From Naegleria gruberi (lineage: Eukaryota), in the NCBI GenBank assembly GCA_000004985.1, contig GG738899.1: a stretch of DNA of 64,000 nt; one strand, given 5' to 3'. Numbering within the stretch: the stretch's first letter is position 1; every line of letters begins with the position of its first letter. The notes below the pieces were generated by a model. It was not told where the DNA came from and did no database searches. It worked only from the letters and a program-made list of their open reading frames with translations. Both the position numbers and the translations under genes were made by a program. Below, piece by piece: positions 23,956 to 62,892 of this stretch.

Positions 23956-24204
23956 TTTTTCAAGAATAGTTTTTGAATTTTATGGAGATACCAGTAGTAC
24001 ATAAAACGTTATGCAAAACAGTATATTGAGGTTATCGCTGGAATAGTATATGAGTTGAATCAATTTTATTAAAGAGATGGAAGTGAATCTTCCTATTTGG
24101 TCAAGTAATCAATTCCTTATTGTCCAAATTCAAATCTTGATTTCTATTGATGATAACCTTCCGTCAACCTTCATATTGATGTTTCACATTTTGTGATACT
24201 GAAT

Positions 24205-24322
24205 GACTACGGCCATATCACGATGAATGCACCTCATCCCGTCCGATTTGAGAAGTTAAGCATCGTCGAGCTACATCAGTACTGAGGTTGGAGACAACTT
24301 GGGAACCTGTGGTGCTGTAGTC
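24205..24322 (+). rRNA. 5S rRNA gene, copy 1 (118 nt), followed by a T6 Pol III terminator.
   Basis: GACTACGGCCATATCACGATGAATGCACCTCATCCCGTCCGATTTGAGAAGTTAAGCATCGTCGAGCTACATCAGTACTGAGGTTGGAGACAACTTGGGAACCTGTGGTGCTGTAGTC. Helix I pairs the 5' and 3' ends. There are two substitutions relative to copies 2 and 3. Confidence 0.9.
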
Positions 24323-24357
24323 TTTTTTATTTTCAAAATTTTGCTCATATTATGAAA

Positions 24358-26229: not shown

Positions 26230-27819
26230 TTACAGTGATTTGAAATTTTGTTGATGTGTTGGCAAAGATAAGAACTCATTTGGATAATTTACAGAGCCAT
26301 TGGGTGGGATAGAGGCGTAGTATGATTGATTCAAAAATGGTGGAGGTACCAGAGAAGTATTATTATTTTGGGTGGAAGTTTCAATTTTTGTCTTCTTCTT
26401 TGGTTGTTTTTTTGGCTTTGGTGGAGGTTGTGGTTGAGTTGGAGGCTCTGCTATAGAACCTTCTTTTTCTCGTTCCTCTAATTCCTGTTTTTCTTTCTTT
26501 GACAAAAATCTGCCTCCAGGACCTCTAGCTCTTTTCTTTGCCCATTCGTGGCGAGAATTGTACTTGTAGGATTTGTCCTTATATTGCCCAGCATTTTTCA
26601 TTTGTTGTTCCAATTTAGCTCTGGCTACTCTTCTTTTCAAAATTCTTTGGTACTGTTTTGGATTTACATAAATTGTTCCTTCAACATTTTGTTGAGAGTT
26701 ATCTGCTTCAGCATTTGCTTGATTATTGGAATAGTCTTGAACTAGTGACTCTGGTTGCTCTTCTTCAGCACTTGTGGGTATTCCAGGTTGTTGTGAATAT
26801 TGATAGTAATTCCAATAGTGATGATTTGGATAAGAATACCAATGCATTTCAGGTTGGGAGTACAAAAAGTTAGGATCATGACTCATACCATTAGCAGCAA
26901 GATAAAAAGGTTGCATTATTCCATGTCCAGTCATTGCAGAAGAATGCAACATATTAGGATAGGAGTAAGCAGAAGTAGTAGAAGTAGGCAGACCATCAAG
27001 CTCATTCTCATATGCATGTTGTTGAAGAGTTGGTTGCTGTTGTTGGGTTGTGACTGGTCGTGCAGATGAGCTTCCCTTTTGGGTTGGATTGGATTGATTG
27101 GAAGAATTTGAGCTAACACGTTTCCTTTTCGGAGAGGTTTTTACAGTGGTTGTTTGAATCAAAGTACTACTCGGATCATTGATAGGAGTGGGAGCTGTGG
27201 CTGTAGTAGGAAGCTTGTTCAAAGGCAAAGATTTGACATTGTTTGTTTGTGAAATTATTGGTGATGGAATGGTTACGTTAGTAGTTGTAGTACTAATGCT
27301 ACTGAGTGCAGTGGCAGACACAACAGTTGAAGGGAGAGCAACAACAGCAGAGGACGAAGCCACATTGGTTGAAGGGAGAGCAAAAGGTGGAGGAAGGAAA
27401 GAACTTTCCATTGTCGATGATTGTTGTTGGAGTAAAAATTGAGTACCTCCTCTCATCATGGCTGCTGATGAAATTGCAGCTGACGATGATCCTCTACTAT
27501 TAATTGTAGAGGTACTACTGCTACTACTCGATGGCTTGAGAGGATCATGAAGAATTGATTGTTGTTGTTGCTGTTTGGGTGAGGAGTGAGTAGGGAGGAC
27601 AGAGAGAATTGATAGAGCAACCTGTTCATCACCAACCGATGATCTGTGATGAAGAGGATTTTCTTGATGATGATGGTGTTGATCCATAATTACAAACTCT
27701 CTTGGAGTTTGTATATTTGCATCATCATCACTACTGCTACTAATGAAGGAAGAATCGTCTTGATCGTCCTCTTCTTGATTACCAATCGGATCAACAACAC
27801 AAGTGTACTCTTCAGCCAT
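26230..27819 (-). CDS. CCAAT-binding factor subunit NF-YA / HAP2 homologue (529 aa) with long low-complexity tracts.
   Basis: The conserved NF-YA core is EGTIYVNPKQYQRILKRRVARAKLEQQ…YNSRHEWAKKRARGPGGRFL (subunit-interaction plus DNA-binding halves). It is flanked by poly-Q, poly-S and His runs and a Lys/Pro-rich C-terminus. Confidence 0.8.
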   Translation of the reverse strand: MAEEYTCVVDPIGNQEEDDQDDSSFISSSSDDDANIQTPREFVIMDQHHHHQENPLHHRSSVGDEQVALSILSVLPTHSSPKQQQQQSILHDPLKPSSSSSSTSTINSRGSSSAAISSAAMMRGGTQFLLQQQSSTMESSFLPPPFALPSTNVASSSAVVALPSTVVSATALSSISTTTTNVTIPSPIISQTNNVKSLPLNKLPTTATAPTPINDPSSTLIQTTTVKTSPKRKRVSSNSSNQSNPTQKGSSSARPVTTQQQQPTLQQHAYENELDGLPTSTTSAYSYPNMLHSSAMTGHGIMQPFYLAANGMSHDPNFLYSQPEMHWYSYPNHHYWNYYQYSQQPGIPTSAEEEQPESLVQDYSNNQANAEADNSQQNVEGTIYVNPKQYQRILKRRVARAKLEQQMKNAGQYKDKSYKYNSRHEWAKKRARGPGGRFLSKKEKQELEEREKEGSIAEPPTQPQPPPKPKKQPKKKTKIETSTQNNNTSLVPPPFLNQSYYASIPPNGSVNYPNEFLSLPTHQQNFKSL

Positions 27820-33281: not shown

Positions 33282-33414
33282 TTACATAAAATAAAAAAGA
33301 GTTTTGATAAACACTACGAAGTTAAAGGCATAGATCCCTACATGGAGGTATAGAAATAAATTACAGAACTTTTTATTAAAATTTCAATTATTTATTTTGA
33401 AAAAGAAATGTTAA

Positions 33415-39064: not shown

Positions 39065-39441
39065 ATCACATAGAAATGGGTCAAAGGATTAAATTCTTAC
39101 TATTCACCTCAGACCACAAAGTAGGTATACCGTAGGTACCCACACTTTAATATTCTTTGAAATTTTATGGTGCATATTTATCTTGAAACATTGAAACAGA
39201 GCTATCATTGCAATTTGATTCCAGAAATGTTTAAGGTGTTACTCATGATAATGTGCTTAAATTTTGGTACGATTGTAGCCCCTTACAATAAATCTTCTAT
39301 TTTTAAAGGTCATGACATAAGGGTGAACTTTGCGCCATAAAACAAGATAAAACACGCCAAGATCTTGCTGAGACAAAATTTCAACAACAAAAAAACAAAT
39401 TAATTGATAATAATCATAATTATAATAATAATAATTAGAAA

Positions 39442-44731: not shown

Positions 44732-47700
44732 TTACATTAAATTGGATTGTTTCAATAATTCTTCTCTGCTGTTACTGGAAGTGGAATATTCTTCAAACTC
44801 TTGTGTATAGAAAAATCTAGAGAAAGTATCTGATAGATTGATTAATATTTGATCTGTAAGGGATTTGATATTATCAACAACCATATCAGATAAATTTGCA
44901 GGAAGGGAGTTCTTTTTTGTTTTGGAAACTGATTGCTTCTCGTCTACTAATTCGAGATTATTTGCATTTTTCAACTTTGCCACCATTGAGGCAAAAGATT
45001 TTCTGCAATCAGATGGAATATTCACTTCCCTAATAGAACCAGATTTCACATAATCATCATAAATATTGTTAATAAACTCTATTATTTCTGCCAGTCCCTT
45101 TTCGATAATATTGGAGTTTTTGGTTAAATGTAAATAGAGTTGAAGATTTTCAAGTGAAAACTCTTTTCTGCAGAAACTATCAAATATCTTTAGGAATATT
45201 GGATTTTCTAGGTATTGATTGATTTCTACCTTCTCTTGTTCATTCTTTTCACCATTCCACACTTTCATTCTTTGGGCTAACAATACAAGAAGGGAATAAC
45301 CTCCATACACTAGCATGTATGTAACAATATGTAATACCTCGAAAATGATTGAAACCGAGTCATAGGTCACTACAGTTCTTACTATAGCCAATGGTGCTAA
45401 TTTTGTTTCGGTATAACCTGTTAGTAACAGCCTATAGTTAAGACTAGCCATTCCCAAAGCTTGTACAATGACAAGGAAAATAAATGAAATAACAAACAAA
45501 ATCATTTCAGCTCTGAAGAACAGTGGAGAATCAGCCTCTACAAACCAAGAAAAGAGGAAATTGAAAACCTTACCCAAAATATTTTGAGCTTTCATCTTTT
45601 GAGATTCTTTAGATCTGTTGGTTGTTTCATTCTTGTTCAAATTTCTCTGATACCATGTCATTATCAAATCTACTGAAAATATACAACAAACAGCAAAACC
45701 AATAAATAGAATTGCAACAGTATAAGAAATGGAAACTATTTGGGTGTATTCAGGGCCAGTAATCACGTTTGTTCTAACTAAAATAACCCACAAAGTCCAA
45801 TATGCTAAATTGATAAATGCAAAAGTAATCAACATAATGCTGTAGAATTTTGCAGATATCAGATGCTTGATAAAGTGAAGAAATCTACTTGCAGTCACCT
45901 TATCGTTCATTAAGGATAATTCATTATAGAAATATTTTAAAAATTCAAATCTCATAACCTGATACAAGTATGTCATGATTGCACACAGGGTTATGGTGTT
46001 TACAATAATTGTAATAATATTTGCCAATATAGAGGAAGCTAGATAACTATTGGCATCGTTTGATTGGGTAGAGGAAATCAAAACACTTCGTTGAACAATG
46101 AGTAGAAGAGAGCTTTGGGTAATCAAAGCTGCCATTCCCAAGAAAGGGGTTGTGAATCTGCTCTTTACAGGTTGTTTGTTAGCATTCAAAGCTAATCCTA
46201 TCAAGACTGCAACAGCACAAATCAAGTAAACTGAACCTAGGGCAATCTGAGTACCATGAACACCAATAAATTGATCGACATATGGTTCAAATGTAATACC
46301 CACAGGAACTTGCTCTATAAAAGCAGAAAATAAAGTGGTATGAGTACAAGAGCAAACAATTTCACCAGTTGCCGAGTTTAAGGATTTCAAAGTGCAACCG
46401 TCAGTATCCCATTTGGACATGGTTTCATTCCAATATTTACAAATGATTCTACTATTATTGCTAGAGCTAATGGGGGTGTTTGAATTGAATGAAATTGAAA
46501 AAGGTTTCACAAGGCTCTTCAAATTCATGCTGTTGCCGTTCCTATGCATTGTGAAATCCTTAGCATTGGCAGCGAAGGTGGCATTAGTCTCTGGATACAC
46601 TATTCCATTAAAGGATACTACAGATAAACCAACTTCAGTGGAGAAGGAGGAGTATTGTGCAAGAATGGAATCAGCTTCAAATAAAATTGAGTCAAACCGA
46701 TTTGTTACCGTTGAAGTTGAAGCACTGTCTTTCGAAAAACTTGAGTATGTAATATTAATATTGGCTGAAGTTATAATTGTTGAAGGCAAGAGTGTATCAC
46801 TTGAAGTAAGGAGGGTTGGTATTGAGGAAATTACTAAAAGTGAAGACAATTTGGTCGCTAAACGACTATCCAATCCCTTTTGAACTAAATTGGATGATGT
46901 TGAAAGAATCGTTTTCGTATCTTCATCTGAGATCTTGGAAGACACAAATCCCTGTTGGCTCTTTTGAGTTTTGTAAGAATTTACAGAATTTCCAAGGTAA
47001 GAATCCAGGTTTTGTATAATTAAATTGGACACAGAGGTAGTGAGATTTTTTTCAGACATAGAATACAGTGATCCAAGTCCAACTGTTGGATTTTCCGCTG
47101 AAATAGTGAAATTCTGCATAGCCATTAACAGTAATTGGTCATATTCATCCGATGATCCAGTGAATGATGAGTCATATGGAACCACTTTAGCAATTCTTGA
47201 ATCGGTCTTCATTAGAGACATTGCCTCACTTGGGGTGCTGTAGAATCTAAGCATTGTCACAACTGATTGAACTAAAACTGACTGTACATTAGATAAGTTA
47301 TCCTTTGCAAAGACCACCAAGTCTGTTGGCTTGTTTTGTTCCATATTTTTTGTGAAAGGCAAATAAGTCAGTAATTGTTGGCCCATAGGTACAAATTCAG
47401 TTAATCGTAGAGTCTGGTTGTTGTAAACAATACCTATTGCAAAAGAAAGCGGGGATTGATCTGCAGAGAAAATTTTCCAGTCGCTTTCGTTTTCCTGAAT
47501 ACTAAACAAGGTATACAGACCAACTCCTCTGTTAGGAGATATATTTAGATTTGAATTTGATGACTTTCTAATTATTGAGCTGGCTACAGGAATGGTGTGA
47601 TTAATCACCATAGTGTTTTGGATAGCACCAGTAATTGTAAAGGAAAGGGTAGCAAAATTAGTAGAACCTTCAAGTTTTACCAATCCTTTGACATTAACAA

Positions 47701-49564
47701 AGGGGTTGAGACTAATACTGGTGAAATTAGAGTTTTTGTTTGCTGTTCCTCTTGTAGTAATTTGATCAGAGCTTGAATATATTCTTTCCTCATACACAAG
47801 CTTCCATGAAATAGAGATGATAGTTGAACAGCTATTACATTCGTTTTGGTTAATTAATGCCAAAAATCTTTTTGTGTCAATGTTGAATCCTGTCAGGACA
47901 CTGTCAATCATTTGATTTTGTGATAGGGATATAGCTTTGATTATATCAGTAACATTGGAGGTGCTATCAAAACTTGAATTATTTGCATAAGTTGAATTGA
48001 ATGTGCTATTATCTACCCCAATTGGTGGTATTACAGTAACTGTAAAATTAACAGAATTAGAGGTTCTAATTATTGCTCCTTCTTGTATATGATTCACCCT
48101 AACAGTTACAATGAAGGTTCCAAGGCTTGAAGCATTAAATAACAATGAACTGAAATTATTATCAATTGGCATTGCACATTTTTCGCAATTCCATATAAAA
48201 TTAATCCCATTAGTAATAGTTTCTGAAACATTAATCTGTAGAACTTGAGATTTTCCTATCTCAACATCATAATTTGAATTAATTGCATTGATAAGAAAAG
48301 ATGAATTGAATTGGCATTGATTTCCCACGAATCCTACTCTACAACTGCATGTATCAGTTTTTGCGCAGTTGCCTCTTCCACTGCAAACAGATGAGTCGTT
48401 TGATAATTTTCCATAACAATAACTTATCAGACATTGTGGATCTGAGCTATTTGTATCACAATTCATTAAATTGAGTCTTCCTATCTGTAGGGTATTCGTA
48501 TCTGTGAAATAGAGAGTTCCGTTTGAATGGACATATAATCCAACAGGTTTGCTAACAGAGATTCCATATTTAGATTCTGCCAATATCGTTCTTATTGTAT
48601 TCTTCTCTATATTAAATACTTTGATTTTTCCTGAATCAGTATCAGCAATATATAGCATTTTACCATCTGGACTCAAAGCTATCCCTTGAGGATTATTCAA
48701 GTTGTGACTAAGAGGATCCAAAGCATCATTTTCAGAAGTGAAAGGGTTTTCTCCTGACCCCACAACAGTTTCCAATAATTTGCTAGAAACGTTATATCTC
48801 TTGATCAAGTTTGTTTCACTATCACAAATGTAGAGGATATCACTTGAAGACATTGCCAGAGAAGTTGGTTTTTGTAGGCCTCCTTGTTGTATCCCTAAAT
48901 CAATCTCAATCTCATTTACAAATCCATCCGTGCCAACTCTAAATATCTTGTCATTGCTGGTAACATAAAGAATTGAGGAATAGAGAGCCAATCCCTTTGG
49001 TTCAATAAGATTAATATGCGCCTTATCATAAGGTGGCGCATATTCAGCCGACCTGTTTCCACTTCCAACATAGTTTTGCAATATCCCTGATGATAGTACT
49101 AGTTTTTTGATGAAATCATTATTAGTGTCAGTAAATAGTACAGTATCCGAATCCATAAAAACAACAGAAGATGGTGAATTTAGAGGAGAAGTAGGACCAA
49201 AAGCAGAACCACCAAGGTCAATAGTAGCATTACCTGAATAACCTGCTCCAGCCAAAACATATGCTGGTGCACCATTATCTGAGAAAAACAACAATCTATG
49301 ACTTCCACTATCAACAACAATAATTGTGTTAGCATCCTTAACTAAAACCGAAGTTGGAGACTTTAAAAGTGAAGTATCCACTGGAAACAAATCCGCCGAT
49401 GTTACAACAGTAGTATCAATAATTGTTGTATTGACATCGATAAGTTCTGGAGGAAGAGGAATTGGTGTTGGTGAGGGTCCAGGAGCCGGCGCAAAATCAG
49501 CAACGATAACTGATGTCAGAACAAGCACAAGAACCAAAAGAAATAGAGGTGTGTATCTTGACAT
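44732..49564 (-). CDS. Adhesion-GPCR-like 7TM receptor with a C-terminal RGS domain, 1610 aa. Domain order is signal peptide, NHL-type beta-propeller repeats, EGF-like module, long Ser/Thr/Asn-rich stalk, GAIN/GPS motif, 7TM, RGS. Paralogue of 3661-8166.
   Basis: Signal peptide: MSRYTPLFLLVLVLVLTSVIVA. NHL-like blades: LYVTSNDKIFRV, LYICDSETNLIKRYNV, LYIADTDSGKIKVFNIEKN, LYFTDTNTLQIGRLNL. EGF module: CSGRGNCAKTDTCSCRVGFVGNQC. GPS motif: CKYWNETMSKWDTDGCTLKSLNSATGEIVCSCTHTTLFSAF. Seven TM helices. RGS box: FSLENLQLYLHL…REVNIPSDCRKSF. Confidence 0.8.
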   Translation of the reverse strand: MSRYTPLFLLVLVLVLTSVIVADFAPAPGPSPTPIPLPPELIDVNTTIIDTTVVTSADLFPVDTSLLKSPTSVLVKDANTIIVVDSGSHRLLFFSDNGAPAYVLAGAGYSGNATIDLGGSAFGPTSPLNSPSSVVFMDSDTVLFTDTNNDFIKKLVLSSGILQNYVGSGNRSAEYAPPYDKAHINLIEPKGLALYSSILYVTSNDKIFRVGTDGFVNEIEIDLGIQQGGLQKPTSLAMSSSDILYICDSETNLIKRYNVSSKLLETVVGSGENPFTSENDALDPLSHNLNNPQGIALSPDGKMLYIADTDSGKIKVFNIEKNTIRTILAESKYGISVSKPVGLYVHSNGTLYFTDTNTLQIGRLNLMNCDTNSSDPQCLISYCYGKLSNDSSVCSGRGNCAKTDTCSCRVGFVGNQCQFNSSFLINAINSNYDVEIGKSQVLQINVSETITNGINFIWNCEKCAMPIDNNFSSLLFNASSLGTFIVTVRVNHIQEGAIIRTSNSVNFTVTVIPPIGVDNSTFNSTYANNSSFDSTSNVTDIIKAISLSQNQMIDSVLTGFNIDTKRFLALINQNECNSCSTIISISWKLVYEERIYSSSDQITTRGTANKNSNFTSISLNPFVNVKGLVKLEGSTNFATLSFTITGAIQNTMVINHTIPVASSIIRKSSNSNLNISPNRGVGLYTLFSIQENESDWKIFSADQSPLSFAIGIVYNNQTLRLTEFVPMGQQLLTYLPFTKNMEQNKPTDLVVFAKDNLSNVQSVLVQSVVTMLRFYSTPSEAMSLMKTDSRIAKVVPYDSSFTGSSDEYDQLLLMAMQNFTISAENPTVGLGSLYSMSEKNLTTSVSNLIIQNLDSYLGNSVNSYKTQKSQQGFVSSKISDEDTKTILSTSSNLVQKGLDSRLATKLSSLLVISSIPTLLTSSDTLLPSTIITSANINITYSSFSKDSASTSTVTNRFDSILFEADSILAQYSSFSTEVGLSVVSFNGIVYPETNATFAANAKDFTMHRNGNSMNLKSLVKPFSISFNSNTPISSSNNSRIICKYWNETMSKWDTDGCTLKSLNSATGEIVCSCTHTTLFSAFIEQVPVGITFEPYVDQFIGVHGTQIALGSVYLICAVAVLIGLALNANKQPVKSRFTTPFLGMAALITQSSLLLIVQRSVLISSTQSNDANSYLASSILANIITIIVNTITLCAIMTYLYQVMRFEFLKYFYNELSLMNDKVTASRFLHFIKHLISAKFYSIMLITFAFINLAYWTLWVILVRTNVITGPEYTQIVSISYTVAILFIGFAVCCIFSVDLIMTWYQRNLNKNETTNRSKESQKMKAQNILGKVFNFLFSWFVEADSPLFFRAEMILFVISFIFLVIVQALGMASLNYRLLLTGYTETKLAPLAIVRTVVTYDSVSIIFEVLHIVTYMLVYGGYSLLVLLAQRMKVWNGEKNEQEKVEINQYLENPIFLKIFDSFCRKEFSLENLQLYLHLTKNSNIIEKGLAEIIEFINNIYDDYVKSGSIREVNIPSDCRKSFASMVAKLKNANNLELVDEKQSVSKTKKNSLPANLSDMVVDNIKSLTDQILINLSDTFSRFFYTQEFEEYSTSSNSREELLKQSNLM

Positions 49565-60096: not shown

Positions 60097-60455
60097 TTTG
60101 TTTGTTCTTTCACACCAGACTGTCTCGTTGAGCTATTTGAACTGTTTTGAATAAGTGTCAGCAAAAACAACATACATCCTCCCGCCCGTAGATCTTTAAA
60201 TGGAGGCGGGGTCTTTATTGAATTAGTGCGGCCAATAAGAACGTCCACAGTTCTGAGAACTATGCCTATTGGTATTTGTAACAATGTGCATTTCCTTTAT
60301 GAAGATGATGTTAATTTGTTTGAATGAGCAATCTTTAAAAAACCCACTCCAATTAATAATACAAAGCACTGCTCAAGAGTGTAGCATATCGATATGCTTC
60401 ACATGGTACTAACAGAATTGATCAAGTTGATATCTGGCATTTTATGATAATAGAT

Positions 60456-60573
60456 GGCTACGGCCATATCACGATGAATGCACCTCATCCCGTCCGATTT
60501 GAGAAGTTAAGCATCGTCGAGCCACATCAGTACTGAGGTTGGAGACAACTTGGGAACCTGTGGTGCTGTAGTC
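60456..60573 (+). rRNA. 5S rRNA gene, copy 2 (118 nt), followed by a T5 terminator.
   Basis: GGCTACGGCCATATCACGATGAATGCACCTCATCCCGTCCGATTTGAGAAGTTAAGCATCGTCGAGCCACATCAGTACTGAGGTTGGAGACAACTTGGGAACCTGTGGTGCTGTAGTC. Upstream element TTTTATGATAATAGAT|GG. Confidence 0.9.
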
Positions 60574-61188
60574 TTTTTAATTTCGATTTAATTTATGTGT
60601 TGTTATCTTATTGTTTTTACAACTTTAAATATTGAAATGTAGAGATATTGAAAATGGAAATGTACAAATATGTGAAGAAAATTAAATACAAATCATTTGA
60701 CAATTTAAAGAACTTTATTGAAAAACTTGTAAAATTCAATCTTATCCAAATTGTTTGGGTTGTTGTTTACTATTAGGGAGACTCTTTTAACTGCTGTGGA
60801 TTCACATTACTGCAAATACTTGGTTACAATCAGGGATTACCTCACTCTACATTAATTATCAACCCTCTCGCCACTCTTTCTAGAACGATTTGATTGGACA
60901 AGAGGGCTCAATGAATCTATTAATATACTCGACTGAAGATTCATTGTAGTAGGTTTCTTTTTTTTTAATTGAACAAGAGACAATTTTCACATTCAAGCCA
61001 GCTCACTTTCTATTTATATTTTAGGAAATGCCACTTTCAACTTTTGAAGCAAACATTCATGAATGTAATTTTCATTTGATCAACAAGTTCATAGGAAGGA
61101 TCAATATCAGTTATATCTGTCTTTGTAAAAGAATAAGGAAGTATATTAATTGTACAATGTTCTATTTATTTTTATTTTTATAATGAAT

Positions 61189-61240
61189 GGCTACGGCCAT
61201 AGCAAGATGAAAGCACATCATCTCAATTAGGAACCTATCT
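61189..61240 (+). pseudogene. Internally deleted 5S rRNA-derived copy (about 52 nt), with the upstream promoter-like element and T-run retained.
   Basis: GGCTACGGCCATAGCAAGATGAAAGCACATCATC…TCAATTAGGAACCTATCTTTTTG is 5S positions 1 to about 35 fused to the 3' terminus. About 65 nt including the internal A/C-box region are missing. Upstream is TTTTTATAATGAAT|GG. Confidence 0.6.
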
Positions 61241-61857
61241 TTTTGCCTTATTGATTTTTCAACCTGGGTAAGTTGGCCTAGTTGTCCACTTCCATTTCAC
61301 AGATTATTATAGTATTTGTGCAAAGAATGAGGAAATTCTCCACTTTATTAGTTGTTTCTTACAACTTTCAGGAGGAAGTTCTTAAAAATTGTGAGCTGAT
61401 CTTGAAGCCATGATGGAAATTGCTCTTCCACCTCAATAATTAATCAAGTCAACATTCAATTATTTTCTTGAATCGAAATTTATATTTTTCACACATAAAA
61501 GTACCACAATTTTTTAACCTCACTTTTCACACATTCAAAACCAATATCATAAACCTCACAAATCAAACTTGATAAAGCCATTGACTGTACTTCTACAGGA
61601 TCTTTTCTGTAGGAATACATAAACTCGACTTTTTTGAGTCAATCTGACCTTTGAGGTTAACCAAGATGAAGACTCTGTAGTCACATATCTTGAGCATGAT
61701 ATCGAACTGGAAACATGCTTCGCTGTAGGTTTCCTCGTTCATAGATGATTGCTGCATTCCTTACCAGCCATGGTTTGTGAATGGGGGATTTGTGAACATG
61801 CAGATTGGTACCTTAATTTTTTTAATAATTAATAGAAACTTAAACAATTTCAACGTC

Positions 61858-61899
61858 CTATGGCAGCATTTCAAGTTCTAGGAACCTATGTTTCTTTTG
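61858..61899 (+). pseudogene. Second, more diverged 5S-derived fragment sharing the same deletion junction.
   Basis: CTATGGCAGCATTTCAAGTTCTAGGAACCTATGTTTCTTTTG shares the CTAyGGC…AGCA…TAGGAACCTAT-TTTCTTTTG junction with the 61189 copy, where the intact gene reads GGGAACCTGTGGTGCTGTAGTC. Same orientation. Confidence 0.4.
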
Positions 61900-62738
61900 T
61901 TGCTTTGCACTTATCAACCAAGATCTATTTGGAACTTTCTTTGCATTAATAGGTACAAAGTGAAAGTCGCCTTAAAAAACTGACTAATAACATCATAAAA
62001 TTAGATTTAGAACAGACAATTACTGAAATTGTAAAACATTGAAAGTTTAATGATTGTTTGTAGGGTTGTATGCAACATTTCTTCTCCAGTATGAACGTTT
62101 CCTCTCAACCAAATATTTGGAGAATGAAACACAATGACCTTGTTTTACATGATGTTCAAAATCATTGTCACTAATTACTTCATAAACATTTTCTTTACAA
62201 ACAGCACAAAACGAAACTCCGTACGAAACCTCAATAAATTGTCTAAGGGAAATGAAAGAGTTCTTCACTATCTTGGCCAACAGATTGAAAAAACTCCCAA
62301 ACTTTAATTGAAACTTCCATTTCAGAGTTGGCTCTATTTTTAAAGAAAGAATTATACCATAATGAAATGAATGTTTTCAACAATCTGAAGCTAAGAGAGA
62401 TTGCAAACCAATACTGATTTTGAGGCATGTGTAATTCTAACATCACTATCAGCTCGTATTCTACCACTAAACCATCGACGCTTCTTATTAGTCTATCAAA
62501 TATTATAATAATAGATAGTGTGATTTAATAAACTGTCATCAATGAAGTGTTGGTGGCGAAACTCCACCCATGCCTTTTTTACCTCCTGTTAAAATTACAT
62601 TAAGAATTTGAATGGAACATCATAAGTTTTATCTGGTTCAAAACCATCAATTTTCGAATGGTGTTTTAGTACTCACTCACAAATTAAACTATAACAAATT
62701 AAGAGATAGCTCATTATCTTAATTTTGATATTAACAAT

Positions 62739-62856
62739 GGCTACGGCCATATCACGATGAATGCACCTCATCCCGTCCGATTTGAGAAGGTAAGCATCGT
62801 CGAGCCACATCAGTACTGAGGTTGGAGACAACTTGGGAACCTGTGGTGCTGTAGTC
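62739..62856 (+). rRNA. 5S rRNA gene, copy 3 (118 nt), followed by a T5 terminator.
   Basis: Identical to copy 2 except one substitution (GAGAAGgTAAGC). Upstream element TTTTGATATTAACAAT|GG. Confidence 0.9.
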
Positions 62857-62892
62857 TTTTTAATTCAAAATATCAAAGTAAAATGAAATTTT

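What the first reader, a model, noticed from the sequence alone, without database searches (positions are those of the whole stretch)
24189..24322. Dispersed 5S rRNA genes with a conserved upstream element
Three intact 118-nt 5S genes (24205, 60456, 62739) lie on the plus strand, far from each other and from any 18S/28S. All end in T5-6. The 20 nt upstream of each shares TTTTnTGATAnT…AAT immediately before +1 (TTTTGTGATACTGAAT|GA, TTTTATGATAATAGAT|GG, TTTTGATATTAACAAT|GG). The truncated copy at 61189 retains the same element (TTTTTATAATGAAT|GG). This suggests an upstream, TATA-like promoter element for Pol III 5S transcription, in addition to or instead of the internal control region. The 5S core (…CTGAGGTTGGAGACAACTTGGGAAC…) resembles the dictyostelid 5S, which in D. 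discoideum sits on the extrachromosomal rDNA. Dispersed chromosomal copies would be a different organisation.
Basis: partly seen in the sequence, partly recalled or inferred. Interest (0 to 1): 0.55.

Follow-up and report, generated by a model that had tools for sequence, protein, structure and literature searches.

The report
Dispersed Naegleria gruberi 5S rRNA genes
These are three ordinary, intact 5S ribosomal RNA genes (plus one broken copy) from the chromosomes of the amoeba Naegleria gruberi; they share a short conserved stretch just upstream that is probably a promoter element, but the genes, their scattering and an upstream "TATA box" were already reported in 2012.

Summary
Rfam finds three full-length 5S rRNA genes (24205-24323, 60456-60574, 62739-62857, + strand, 102-105 bits against a threshold of 38). 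Each ends in a run of 5-6 T. A 5S relic lies at 61189-61244.

The window is Naegleria gruberi scaffold_55, not a dictyostelid. A window protein is 100% identical to an N. gruberi protein. The three genes match, base for base in spacing, three entries of Table S1 of PMC3369914 (2012). That paper listed 279 N. gruberi 5S genes, off the rDNA plasmid, with an internal control region and an upstream TATA box. My re-analysis of that table shows 117 scaffolds and a median spacing of about 34 kb, so the genes are dispersed.

The upstream similarity is real and sharply bounded. In-register identity over -30..-1 exceeds all 20,000 AT-matched random sets, while -60..-31 is at background. The consensus is GTT.A..TT....ATTTT...ATA.T..AT. 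Whether this reflects promoter constraint or shared descent cannot be settled with five sequences. One independent Naegleria-type copy keeps the -30 block and the AT before +1 but lacks the ATTTTnTGATA core. Box A (+50) and box C (+80) are present, so "instead of the internal promoter" is not supported.

Verdict: known in outline, low interest.

The parts
24175..24204 (+). Conserved upstream block of 5S copy A (-30..-1): ATTGATGTTTCACATTTTGTGATACTGAAT
   Evidence: 21/30 in-register identity with copy B, background beyond -30. Set-level test 0/20,000. Exact ATTTTGTGATA at 24188-24198, i.e. -17..-7.
24205..24323 (+). 5S rRNA gene, copy A (= Naegr1 scaffold_55 216208-216324, R33451)
   Evidence: RF00001 103.5 bits, model 1-120. 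Table S1 of PMC3369914. Box A consensus at +50, box C-like at +80. G2A and C68T relative to B keep pairs.
24323..24328 (+). T6 run, Pol III-type terminator of copy A
   Evidence: Sequence GTAGTCT|TTTTTA.
60426..60455 (+). Conserved upstream block of 5S copy B: GTTGATATCTGGCATTTTATGATAATAGAT
   Evidence: GTTGATAT at 60426-60433. ATTTTATGATA at 60439-60449.
60456..60574 (+). 5S rRNA gene, copy B (= scaffold_55 252459-252575, R33734), followed by a T5 run (60574-60578)
   Evidence: RF00001 105.4 bits. Table S1. Box A at +50 and box C-like at +80.
61159..61188 (+). Upstream block retained by the 5S relic: GTTCTATTTATTTTTATTTTTATAATGAAT
   Evidence: 7-8/10 identity with A, B and C over -10..-1. D2 family.
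61189..61244 (+). Internally deleted 5S pseudogene: 5S nt 1-36 (32/36) joined to AATTAGGAACCT (about nt 93-104), then ATC and a T5 run. It lacks box A, the IE and most of box C.
   Evidence: blastn E = 9e-5. Global alignment.
62709..62738 (+). Upstream block of 5S copy C: GCTCATTATCTTAATTTTGATATTAACAAT (ATTTT in register, GATA shifted by 2 nt)
   Evidence: B and C are 94% identical over 144 nt only (D1).
62739..62857 (+). 5S rRNA gene, copy C (= scaffold_55 254742-254858, R33452), followed by a T5 run (62857-62861). Its single substitution T52G breaks a pair and removes the box A consensus match.
   Evidence: RF00001 102.1 bits with a non-canonical pair flagged. Box A test. Table S1.

Best explanation
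These are functional nuclear 5S rRNA genes of Naegleria gruberi. They belong to a family of about 279 copies scattered singly or in loose pairs over the chromosomes, while 18S/5.8S/28S sit on the multicopy extrachromosomal rDNA circle. Each copy is a self-contained RNA polymerase III unit of about 150-160 bp. It has an internal control region (box A at +50, box C-like at +80), a T5-6 terminator, and a conserved AT-rich block within 30 bp upstream: GTTGAwAT near -30, ATTTT..(G/T)ATA at -17..-7, and A-T at -2/-1 before the +1 G. Shown here: gene identity, integrity, organism, dispersal, and the bounded, non-random upstream similarity. Inferred: the upstream block helps TFIIIB/TBP placement and start-site choice. 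This is as in Arabidopsis, where a TATA-like motif 28 bp upstream is needed for 5S transcription, and as with the TATA boxes at -30/-24 of S. pombe and plant tRNA genes. Dispersed copies with unrelated surroundings would have to carry such a signal themselves. I put about 0.97 on 'genuine N. gruberi 5S genes' and about 0.55 on 'the upstream block is a selected promoter element'.
For: Rfam scores of 102-105 bits over the full model, with substitutions in copy A that keep pairs. A window protein is 100% identical to an N. gruberi protein on a 331-kb contig. Spacings of 36,251 and 2,283 bp are identical to three scaffold_55 entries in Table S1 of PMC3369914. That table gives 279 hits on 117 scaffolds, a median gap of 33.9 kb and no fixed period. 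The N. gruberi rDNA circle carries only 5.8S, 18S and 28S (PMC5805870). Box A is exact at +50 in A and B, and box C matches 16/18 at +80. Upstream identity over -30..-1 is about 6.5 sd above AT-matched random sets, at background over -60..-31, and downstream only the first 10 nt are similar. 15 of 30 columns agree in at least 4 of 5 sequences. There is no longer shared flank and no target-site duplication. The independent Naegleria-type copy L003 shares GTTGAAAT at -30..-23 and AGAT before +1. Precedents: PMC5887818, PMC7279448, PMC3369914.
Against: Only five flanks could be examined. B, C and the relic lie within 2.3 kb and may be local duplicates. The relic, which is presumably not under selection, keeps the block, so descent alone can preserve it. 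L003 lacks the ATTTTnTGATA core. That core at -17..-7 lies closer to +1 than the usual TBP site (-30/-24). No canonical TATAAA sits at -30 in copies A and B. No expression data were available. The two tRNA genes in the window do not carry the same block in the same register.
Confidence: 0.6

Rival explanations
1. The upstream block is only a relic of the duplicated unit. 5S copies spread by DNA-level duplication of a roughly 160-bp segment (-30 to +10 past the gene). The gene body is kept uniform by selection or gene conversion, while the short co-duplicated flank is decaying neutrally and has no promoter role. Transcription relies on the internal control region alone.
For: The internally deleted pseudogene keeps the block (7-8/10 identity over -10..-1). 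B, the relic and C are neighbours within 2.3 kb. Identity is graded (A-B 21/30, others 13-17/30). L003 lacks the proximal core. Box A and box C are present.
Against: The genes are 98-100% identical, yet flanks beyond -30 are at random-level identity for all pairs, including A, which lies 36 kb away. If age had erased those flanks, it should have erased an unconstrained -30..-1 as well. Agreement is concentrated in particular columns (ATTTT, ATA, AT before +1) and is not spread evenly. No target-site duplications or larger repeat mark a mobile unit. Upstream elements are required for 5S transcription in other eukaryotes.
Confidence: 0.3
2. The resemblance is a by-product of AT-rich intergenic DNA and has no meaning.
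For: Local GC of the flanks is 10-27%. The core ATTTTNTGATA is not enriched in the window overall (20 matches at one mismatch or fewer, against 30.8 expected). GTTGAWAT is not enriched either (17 against 12.9).
Against: With AT-matched nulls, 0 of 20,000 random sets reach the observed in-register identity over -30..-1 or -18..-1, while -60..-31 is at background. A-B share 14 of 18 positions (null P = 7e-5). Two of the three exact core matches in 64 kb fall at exactly -17 of a 5S gene.
Confidence: 0.02
3. The copies are silent pseudogenes and the active 5S gene is elsewhere, for example on the rDNA circle.
For: No expression data were available here. Copy C carries a change in box A.
Against: The fully sequenced N. 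gruberi rDNA circle encodes only 5.8S, 18S and 28S (PMC5805870). PMC3369914 found 5S only on nuclear scaffolds. The copies score 102-105 bits over the full model, and the variant positions in A preserve pairing.
Confidence: 0.03

Closest known systems
Naegleria gruberi 5S rRNA gene family as catalogued in PMC3369914 (PLoS One 2012;7:e36878), Table S1 and Fig. 2
   Same: These are the same genes: scaffold_55 entries R33451, R33734 and R33452. That paper already states that the genes are not on the rDNA unit, have an ICR and an upstream TATA box, and that no TFIIIA homolog was found while TFIIIB and TFIIIC were.
   Different: That paper searched for a TATAAA core within 60 bp and showed one gene. 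It gives no positional consensus or statistics in the text I could read. Its Table 1 scores the genes as 'tandem', which its own Table S1 does not support. Here the shared block is delimited to -30..-1 and given a consensus.
Arabidopsis thaliana 5S rRNA genes (type 1 Pol III promoter plus upstream TATA-like motif at -28)
   Same: Internal promoter (boxes A, IE, C), a T-stretch terminator and a required AT-rich upstream motif about 30 bp before +1 (PMC5887818).
   Different: The Arabidopsis genes are in long tandem arrays of 500-bp units, whereas these are dispersed. The strongest conservation here is nearer +1 (-17..-7). Function has not been tested here.
Dispersed 5S genes of Yarrowia lipolytica (108 copies) and Schizosaccharomyces pombe (about 30 copies)
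   Same: 5S genes lie outside the rDNA unit and are scattered over the genome. Relics with internal or terminal deletions accompany the intact copies (PMC2566860).
   Different: Half of the Yarrowia copies are fused 3' of tRNA genes and are TFIIIA-independent. No tRNA gene precedes any of the copies here.
[quoted passage not shown]
   Same: Both organisms keep the large rRNA genes on a multicopy extrachromosomal element (PMC5391098; PMC5805870).
   Different: In Dictyostelium the 5S gene is on that element. In Naegleria it is chromosomal and dispersed.
Trichomonas vaginalis 5S genes (TATA box plus ICR)
   Same: A protist 5S gene reported with both an upstream TATA box and an ICR (as cited in PMC3369914).
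   Different: That paper scores the T. vaginalis genes as tandemly arranged. TFIIIA was found there but not in N. gruberi.

Membership tests
5S rRNA (Rfam RF00001) | Covariance-model score above the curated gathering threshold over the full-length model | tested here: met
   102.1-105.4 bits against 38, model 1-120/120, for all three copies. The relic at 61189 does not reach any threshold.
5S rRNA (Rfam RF00001) | Variation between copies preserves the secondary structure | tested here: met
   A: G2A turns G-U into A-U and C68T keeps a G-U pair. C: T52G is flagged as breaking one pair (alignments).
Pol III type 1 (5S) promoter | Box A at about +50..+64 | tested here: met
   The consensus NSYYAANCNNNNNNN (from PMC3369914) matches exactly at +50 in A and B. 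It is lost in C through T52G.
Pol III type 1 (5S) promoter | Intermediate element at about +67..+72 | tested here: inconclusive
   The loose consensus SNNRRN matches at +61 and +78 but not at +67. The consensus is too degenerate to decide.
Pol III type 1 (5S) promoter | Box C at about +80..+97 | tested here: met
   GAGGTTGGAGACAACTTG at +80 matches 16 of 18 consensus positions in all three copies.
Pol III type 1 (5S) promoter | Recognition of the ICR by TFIIIA | not testable with these tools
   PMC3369914 reports no TFIIIA homolog in N. gruberi by BLASTp/PSI-BLAST. I could not search the N. gruberi proteome.
Pol III type 1 (5S) promoter | Termination at a run of 4 or more T immediately after the gene | tested here: met
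   T6, T5 and T5.
5S genes with an upstream TATA-like promoter element (Arabidopsis / S. pombe type) | AT-rich TATA-like motif centred near -30/-24, conserved among copies | tested here: inconclusive
   -30..-19 is only weakly above null for the four window copies (30 against 22.4, P about 0.05) and clearer with L003 added (57 against 37.4, P about 0.002). The consensus is GTTGAwAT and is not TATAAA. The stronger block is at -17..-7.
5S genes with an upstream TATA-like promoter element (Arabidopsis / S. pombe type) | The upstream element is required for transcription | not testable with these tools
   This needs mutagenesis with in vitro or in vivo transcription.
   The window is N. gruberi scaffold_55. 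The genes lie among protein-coding genes.
Tandem 5S rDNA array | Head-to-tail copies at a constant period | tested here: not met
   Window spacings are 36,251 and 2,283 bp, with unrelated spacers that include a U3 gene. Genome-wide there are 117 scaffolds, a median gap of 33.9 kb and no common period.

The most novel reading that the evidence does not exclude
Naegleria may use a gene-external proximal element (ATTTTnTGATAaT, with a '-10-like' GATAAT/TATAAT at -10..-5) as the main determinant of Pol III initiation on 5S genes, and perhaps on U3. This would compensate for the reported absence of TFIIIA. 5S transcription would then be largely upstream-driven and TFIIIA-independent, and even the ICR-less relic at 61189-61244 could yield a short transcript.
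Probability: 0.1. Interest if true: 0.5.

Novelty: already known. Interest (0 to 1): 0.15.

Why it matters
The finding matters little. It confirms that in Naegleria the 5S genes are nuclear, numerous and dispersed, while the other rRNA genes sit on about 4,000 copies of an extrachromosomal circle. [quoted passage not shown] The delimited 30-bp upstream block gives a concrete, testable candidate for a Pol III upstream element in a heterolobosean in which TFIIIA has not been found. Upstream elements at 5S genes are long established in plants, fungi, insects and other protists, so a positive result would extend the known picture, not change it.

Tried and rejected
1. I tried to recover more Naegleria 5S copies with flanks.
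- The single metagenome scan with a 27-nt 5S core gave six contigs. Only one of them (L003) is Naegleria-type.
- Two genome-contig scans and two viral-contig scans with Naegleria-specific 5' and 3' patterns gave nothing.

2. I tried to reach the rest of the N. gruberi scaffold. The look-up of encoding contigs failed for two window ORFs and for the NCBI protein P0001. The N. gruberi assembly is evidently not in that index.

3. I tried comparative footprinting at orthologous loci. The NF-YA loci of N. fowleri (L007/L008) and N. lovaniensis (L010) hold no 5S or any other Rfam RNA within +/-10 kb. Copy A is therefore not syntenic. I ran no further search on further loci, because the expected yield was below one 5S copy.

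4. I considered that the 5S-snRNA clusters on L001, L002, L004 and L006 were relatives that might explain the 5S-U3 linkage here. I rejected this. Their 5S sequences share only the conserved loop C segment, and their GC content is 42-55%.

5. I considered a larger mobile element or retroposition with target-site duplications, and found no support.

6. I considered chance AT-richness, and rejected it.

7. The other 10-11-nt seed hits of 5S in the window (22452, 34774, 42741 and others) are chance matches with E above 1.

8. The N. gruberi genome paper is not held in the library.

Full report
**Observation.** An Rfam scan of the whole window finds three full-length 5S rRNA genes on the + strand. 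They lie at 24205-24323 (103.5 bits), 60456-60574 (105.4 bits) and 62739-62857 (102.1 bits). The gathering score is 38, and each match covers model positions 1-120. The same scan finds a U3 snoRNA (61581-61809, + strand) and two tRNA genes, and no large rRNA gene. The genes are 119 nt by Rfam's boundaries. Copy A differs from B by G2A and C68T, and both changes keep base pairs. Copy C differs by T52G, which breaks one pair. The truncated copy is real: 61189-61222 is 88% identical to 5S nt 1-34 (E = 9e-5). The other short seed hits in the window are chance matches.

**Organism.** The window is 33.6% GC and carries long uninterrupted ORFs. The NF-YA-domain ORF at 26230-27819 (- strand) is 100% identical to an NCBI 'predicted protein [Naegleria gruberi]' on a 331,038-bp contig. 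The best other hits are N. fowleri (34%) and N. lovaniensis (38%). Table S1 of PMC3369914 lists putative N. gruberi 5S genes on scaffold_55 at 216208, 252459 and 254742. The spacings of 36,251 and 2,283 bp equal those between the window copies exactly. The window is therefore N. gruberi scaffold_55, roughly 192,002-256,001. Dictyostelium keeps its 5S gene on its extrachromosomal rDNA palindrome (PMC5391098). The Naegleria rDNA circle (14,007 bp in N. gruberi EGB, 3,000-5,000 copies) encodes only 5.8S, 18S and 28S (PMC5805870).

**What was already known.** PMC3369914 (2012) surveyed the N. gruberi 5S system in silico. It reported the following:
- 279 putative genes.
- The genes are not located with the rDNA unit.
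- An ICR is present.
- An upstream TATA box is present. It was found by looking for a TATAAA core within 60 bp, and one gene is shown in the paper's Fig. 2.
- TFIIIB and TFIIIC are present, and TFIIIA was not found.

Its Table 1 scores the genes as tandemly arranged. I transcribed its Table S1 and found 279 hits on 117 scaffolds. The median distance between neighbours on the same scaffold is 33.9 kb. Only 22 gaps are 3 kb or less, and there is no common period. Scattered 5S genes are also known in Yarrowia lipolytica (108 copies plus relics) and S. pombe (about 30 copies) (PMC2566860).

**The upstream element.**
- In-register identity between copies is at background (about 3 per 10 nt) from -100 to -31 and rises only in the last 30 nt. 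A against B gives 7, 7 and 7 of 10 in the three blocks. The other pairs give 4-8.
- I compared against sets of random AT-matched (30% GC or less) stretches from the window. The sum-of-pairs identity of the four window copies is 98 against 56.1 +/- 6.5 over -30..-1 (0 of 20,000 random sets reach it). It is 68 against 33.6 +/- 5.1 over -18..-1 (0 of 20,000). It is 30 against 22.4 over -30..-19 (P about 0.05). It is 47 against 50.6 over -60..-31.
- A MAFFT alignment introduces no gaps among the 5S flanks.
- The consensus, with at least 4 of 5 sequences agreeing, is GTT.A..TT....ATTTT...ATA.T..AT.
- The core ATTTTNTGATA is not common in the window: 20 matches at one mismatch or fewer, against 30.8 expected. 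Two of its three exact occurrences lie at exactly -17 of a 5S gene.
- Downstream, only the T-run and the next few bases are alike.
- There is no longer gapped homology in 500 nt of flank on either side, and there are no target-site duplications.
- Copies B and C share only 144 nt.

The shared unit therefore runs from about -30 to about +10 past the gene.

**Independent copies.**
- Five of them carry a different 5S that shares only the conserved loop C segment. Four of these (L001, L002, L004, L006) pack it with snRNA, U3 or SRP genes. All five come from GC-richer organisms.
- One contig, L003 (36% GC), has a 5S with a single mismatch to copy B.
- The L003 flank has GTTGAAAT at -30..-23 and AGAT before +1, as in copy B. 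It lacks the ATTTTnTGATA core. Adding it raises the significance of the -30..-19 block (57 against 37.4, P about 0.002).
- Scans of the prokaryotic genome and viral collections found nothing.
- The N. fowleri and N. lovaniensis NF-YA loci hold no 5S within +/-10 kb.

The family-wide logo that would settle the matter could not be made.

**Internal promoter and terminator.** I used the consensus sequences quoted in PMC3369914. Box A matches exactly at +50 in A and B and is lost in C through its only substitution. Box C matches 16 of 18 positions at +80. The intermediate element is undecidable. These positions fit the type 1 Pol III promoter (box A +50..+60, IE +67..+72, box C +80..+90; PMC7279448).

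**The relic.** Region 61189-61244 aligns as 5S nt 1-36 (32/36), joined to AATTAGGAACCT (about nt 93-104), then ATC and five T. It is an internally deleted copy without an ICR. It keeps the upstream block, with 7-8 of 10 identity over -10..-1. This cuts both ways. It shows that the block travels with the gene, and it also shows that descent without selection can preserve it for a while.

**Mechanism.** Shown: these are intact, dispersed nuclear 5S genes, each with an ICR-like interior, a T-run and a short conserved upstream block. Inferred: the ICR recruits TFIIIC, through TFIIIA or an unidentified substitute. TFIIIB/TBP binds the AT-rich upstream block and fixes initiation at the G that follows the invariant A-T. 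Pol III terminates in the T-run. Precedents are the TATA-like motif 28 bp upstream that Arabidopsis 5S transcription needs (PMC5887818), the TATA boxes at -30/-24 of S. pombe and plant tRNA genes (PMC7279448), and the TATA-plus-ICR arrangement reported for T. vaginalis and N. gruberi (PMC3369914). The main rival is that the block is a neutral remnant of the duplicated unit (about 0.3). Against it, the flanks beyond -30 are fully randomised even though the genes are 98-100% identical, and agreement is concentrated in particular columns. Chance AT-richness and 'silent pseudogenes' are effectively excluded.

**Novelty and score.** The genes, their location off the rDNA, their number and the idea of ICR plus upstream TATA are all published. 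What is added here is the delimitation and statistics of the 30-bp block, the correction from 'tandem' to 'dispersed', and the anatomy of the relic. Interest is low (0.15). The most novel reading not excluded is that the unusually proximal block (-17..-5, with GATAAT/TATAAT at -10..-5, and GATA at the same offset before U3) is a Naegleria-specific Pol III element that substitutes for a missing TFIIIA. I give this a probability of about 0.1.

Noticed in passing
window 61581-61809 (+), flanks 61560-61830: A U3 snoRNA gene (RF00012, 76 bits) lies between the 5S relic and 5S copy C, in a 2.8-kb, 29% GC stretch without long ORFs. A T7 run begins 8 nt after its 3' end, in a context (TTTTTTTAAT) that resembles the 5S terminators. 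TTGATAAAG precedes it, with GATA at -10..-7, the same offset as in 5S copies A and B. This hints that U3 is transcribed by Pol III here, as in plants, and may share a proximal element with 5S.
   Followed up: partly
window 61860-61905 (+): ATGGCAGCATTTCAAGTTCTAGGAACCTATGTTTCTTTTGTTGC resembles the tail of the 5S relic (TAGGAACCTATCTTT against TAGGAACCTATGTTT; D9). It may be a second, more decayed 5S remnant just downstream of U3. The alignment to 5S is too fragmentary to be sure.
   Followed up: partly
window 62790 (copy C, gene position 52): The only difference between copy C and copy B (T52G) falls in the conserved GUUAAGC segment. It breaks a base pair and abolishes the box A consensus match. 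Copy C may be a weaker or inactive gene, and reads carrying this variant would tell which.
   Followed up: partly
window 33282-33300 and 39066-39085 (- strand, upstream of tRNA-Asn and tRNA-Arg): Both tRNA genes are preceded, directly before the mature 5' end, by a similar AT-rich string: ttATTTTATGTAA| and cATTTCTATGTGA|. It is reminiscent of the 5S core ATTTTnTGATA but lies in a different register. With two genes this may be chance.
   Followed up: no
L001, L002, L004, L006 (metagenome contigs Ga0075111_1048119, Ga0307929_1030839, Ga0307987_1029065, Ga0233403_10017539): Contigs of 1-2.3 kb from unidentified, GC-richer (42-55%) eukaryotes carry a 5S gene tightly packed with small RNA genes. 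L006 holds U6, U5, U1, U2, U4 and SRP RNA. L004 holds U3, U6 and U5. L001 and L002 hold U6, and L002 also carries a second, cut-off 5S about 1 kb away. They share only a 27-nt 5S segment with Naegleria.
   Followed up: partly
literature: PMC3369914 Table 1 against its Table S1; PMC5805870 and other CERE papers: The 2012 survey scores N. gruberi 5S genes as 'tandem', but its own coordinates show 117 scaffolds and a median gap of about 34 kb. [quoted passage not shown] This overlooks the nuclear 5S genes.
   Followed up: yes
L008 (N. fowleri) and L010 (N. lovaniensis), whole loci: Gene order around NF-YA (NAAA-beta, NF-YA, Ras/Arf-type GTPase, WD40 genes, AP endonuclease) is shared between N. 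fowleri and N. lovaniensis. Neither locus carries a 5S gene or any other Rfam RNA within +/-10 kb, unlike N. gruberi, where 5S copy A lies 2 kb from NF-YA.
   Followed up: partly
window 47915-47925 (+): The third exact ATTTTGTGATA in the window lies inside the 1610-aa ORF 44732-49564 (- strand), and Rfam finds no RNA gene there. I take it as a chance occurrence.
   Followed up: no
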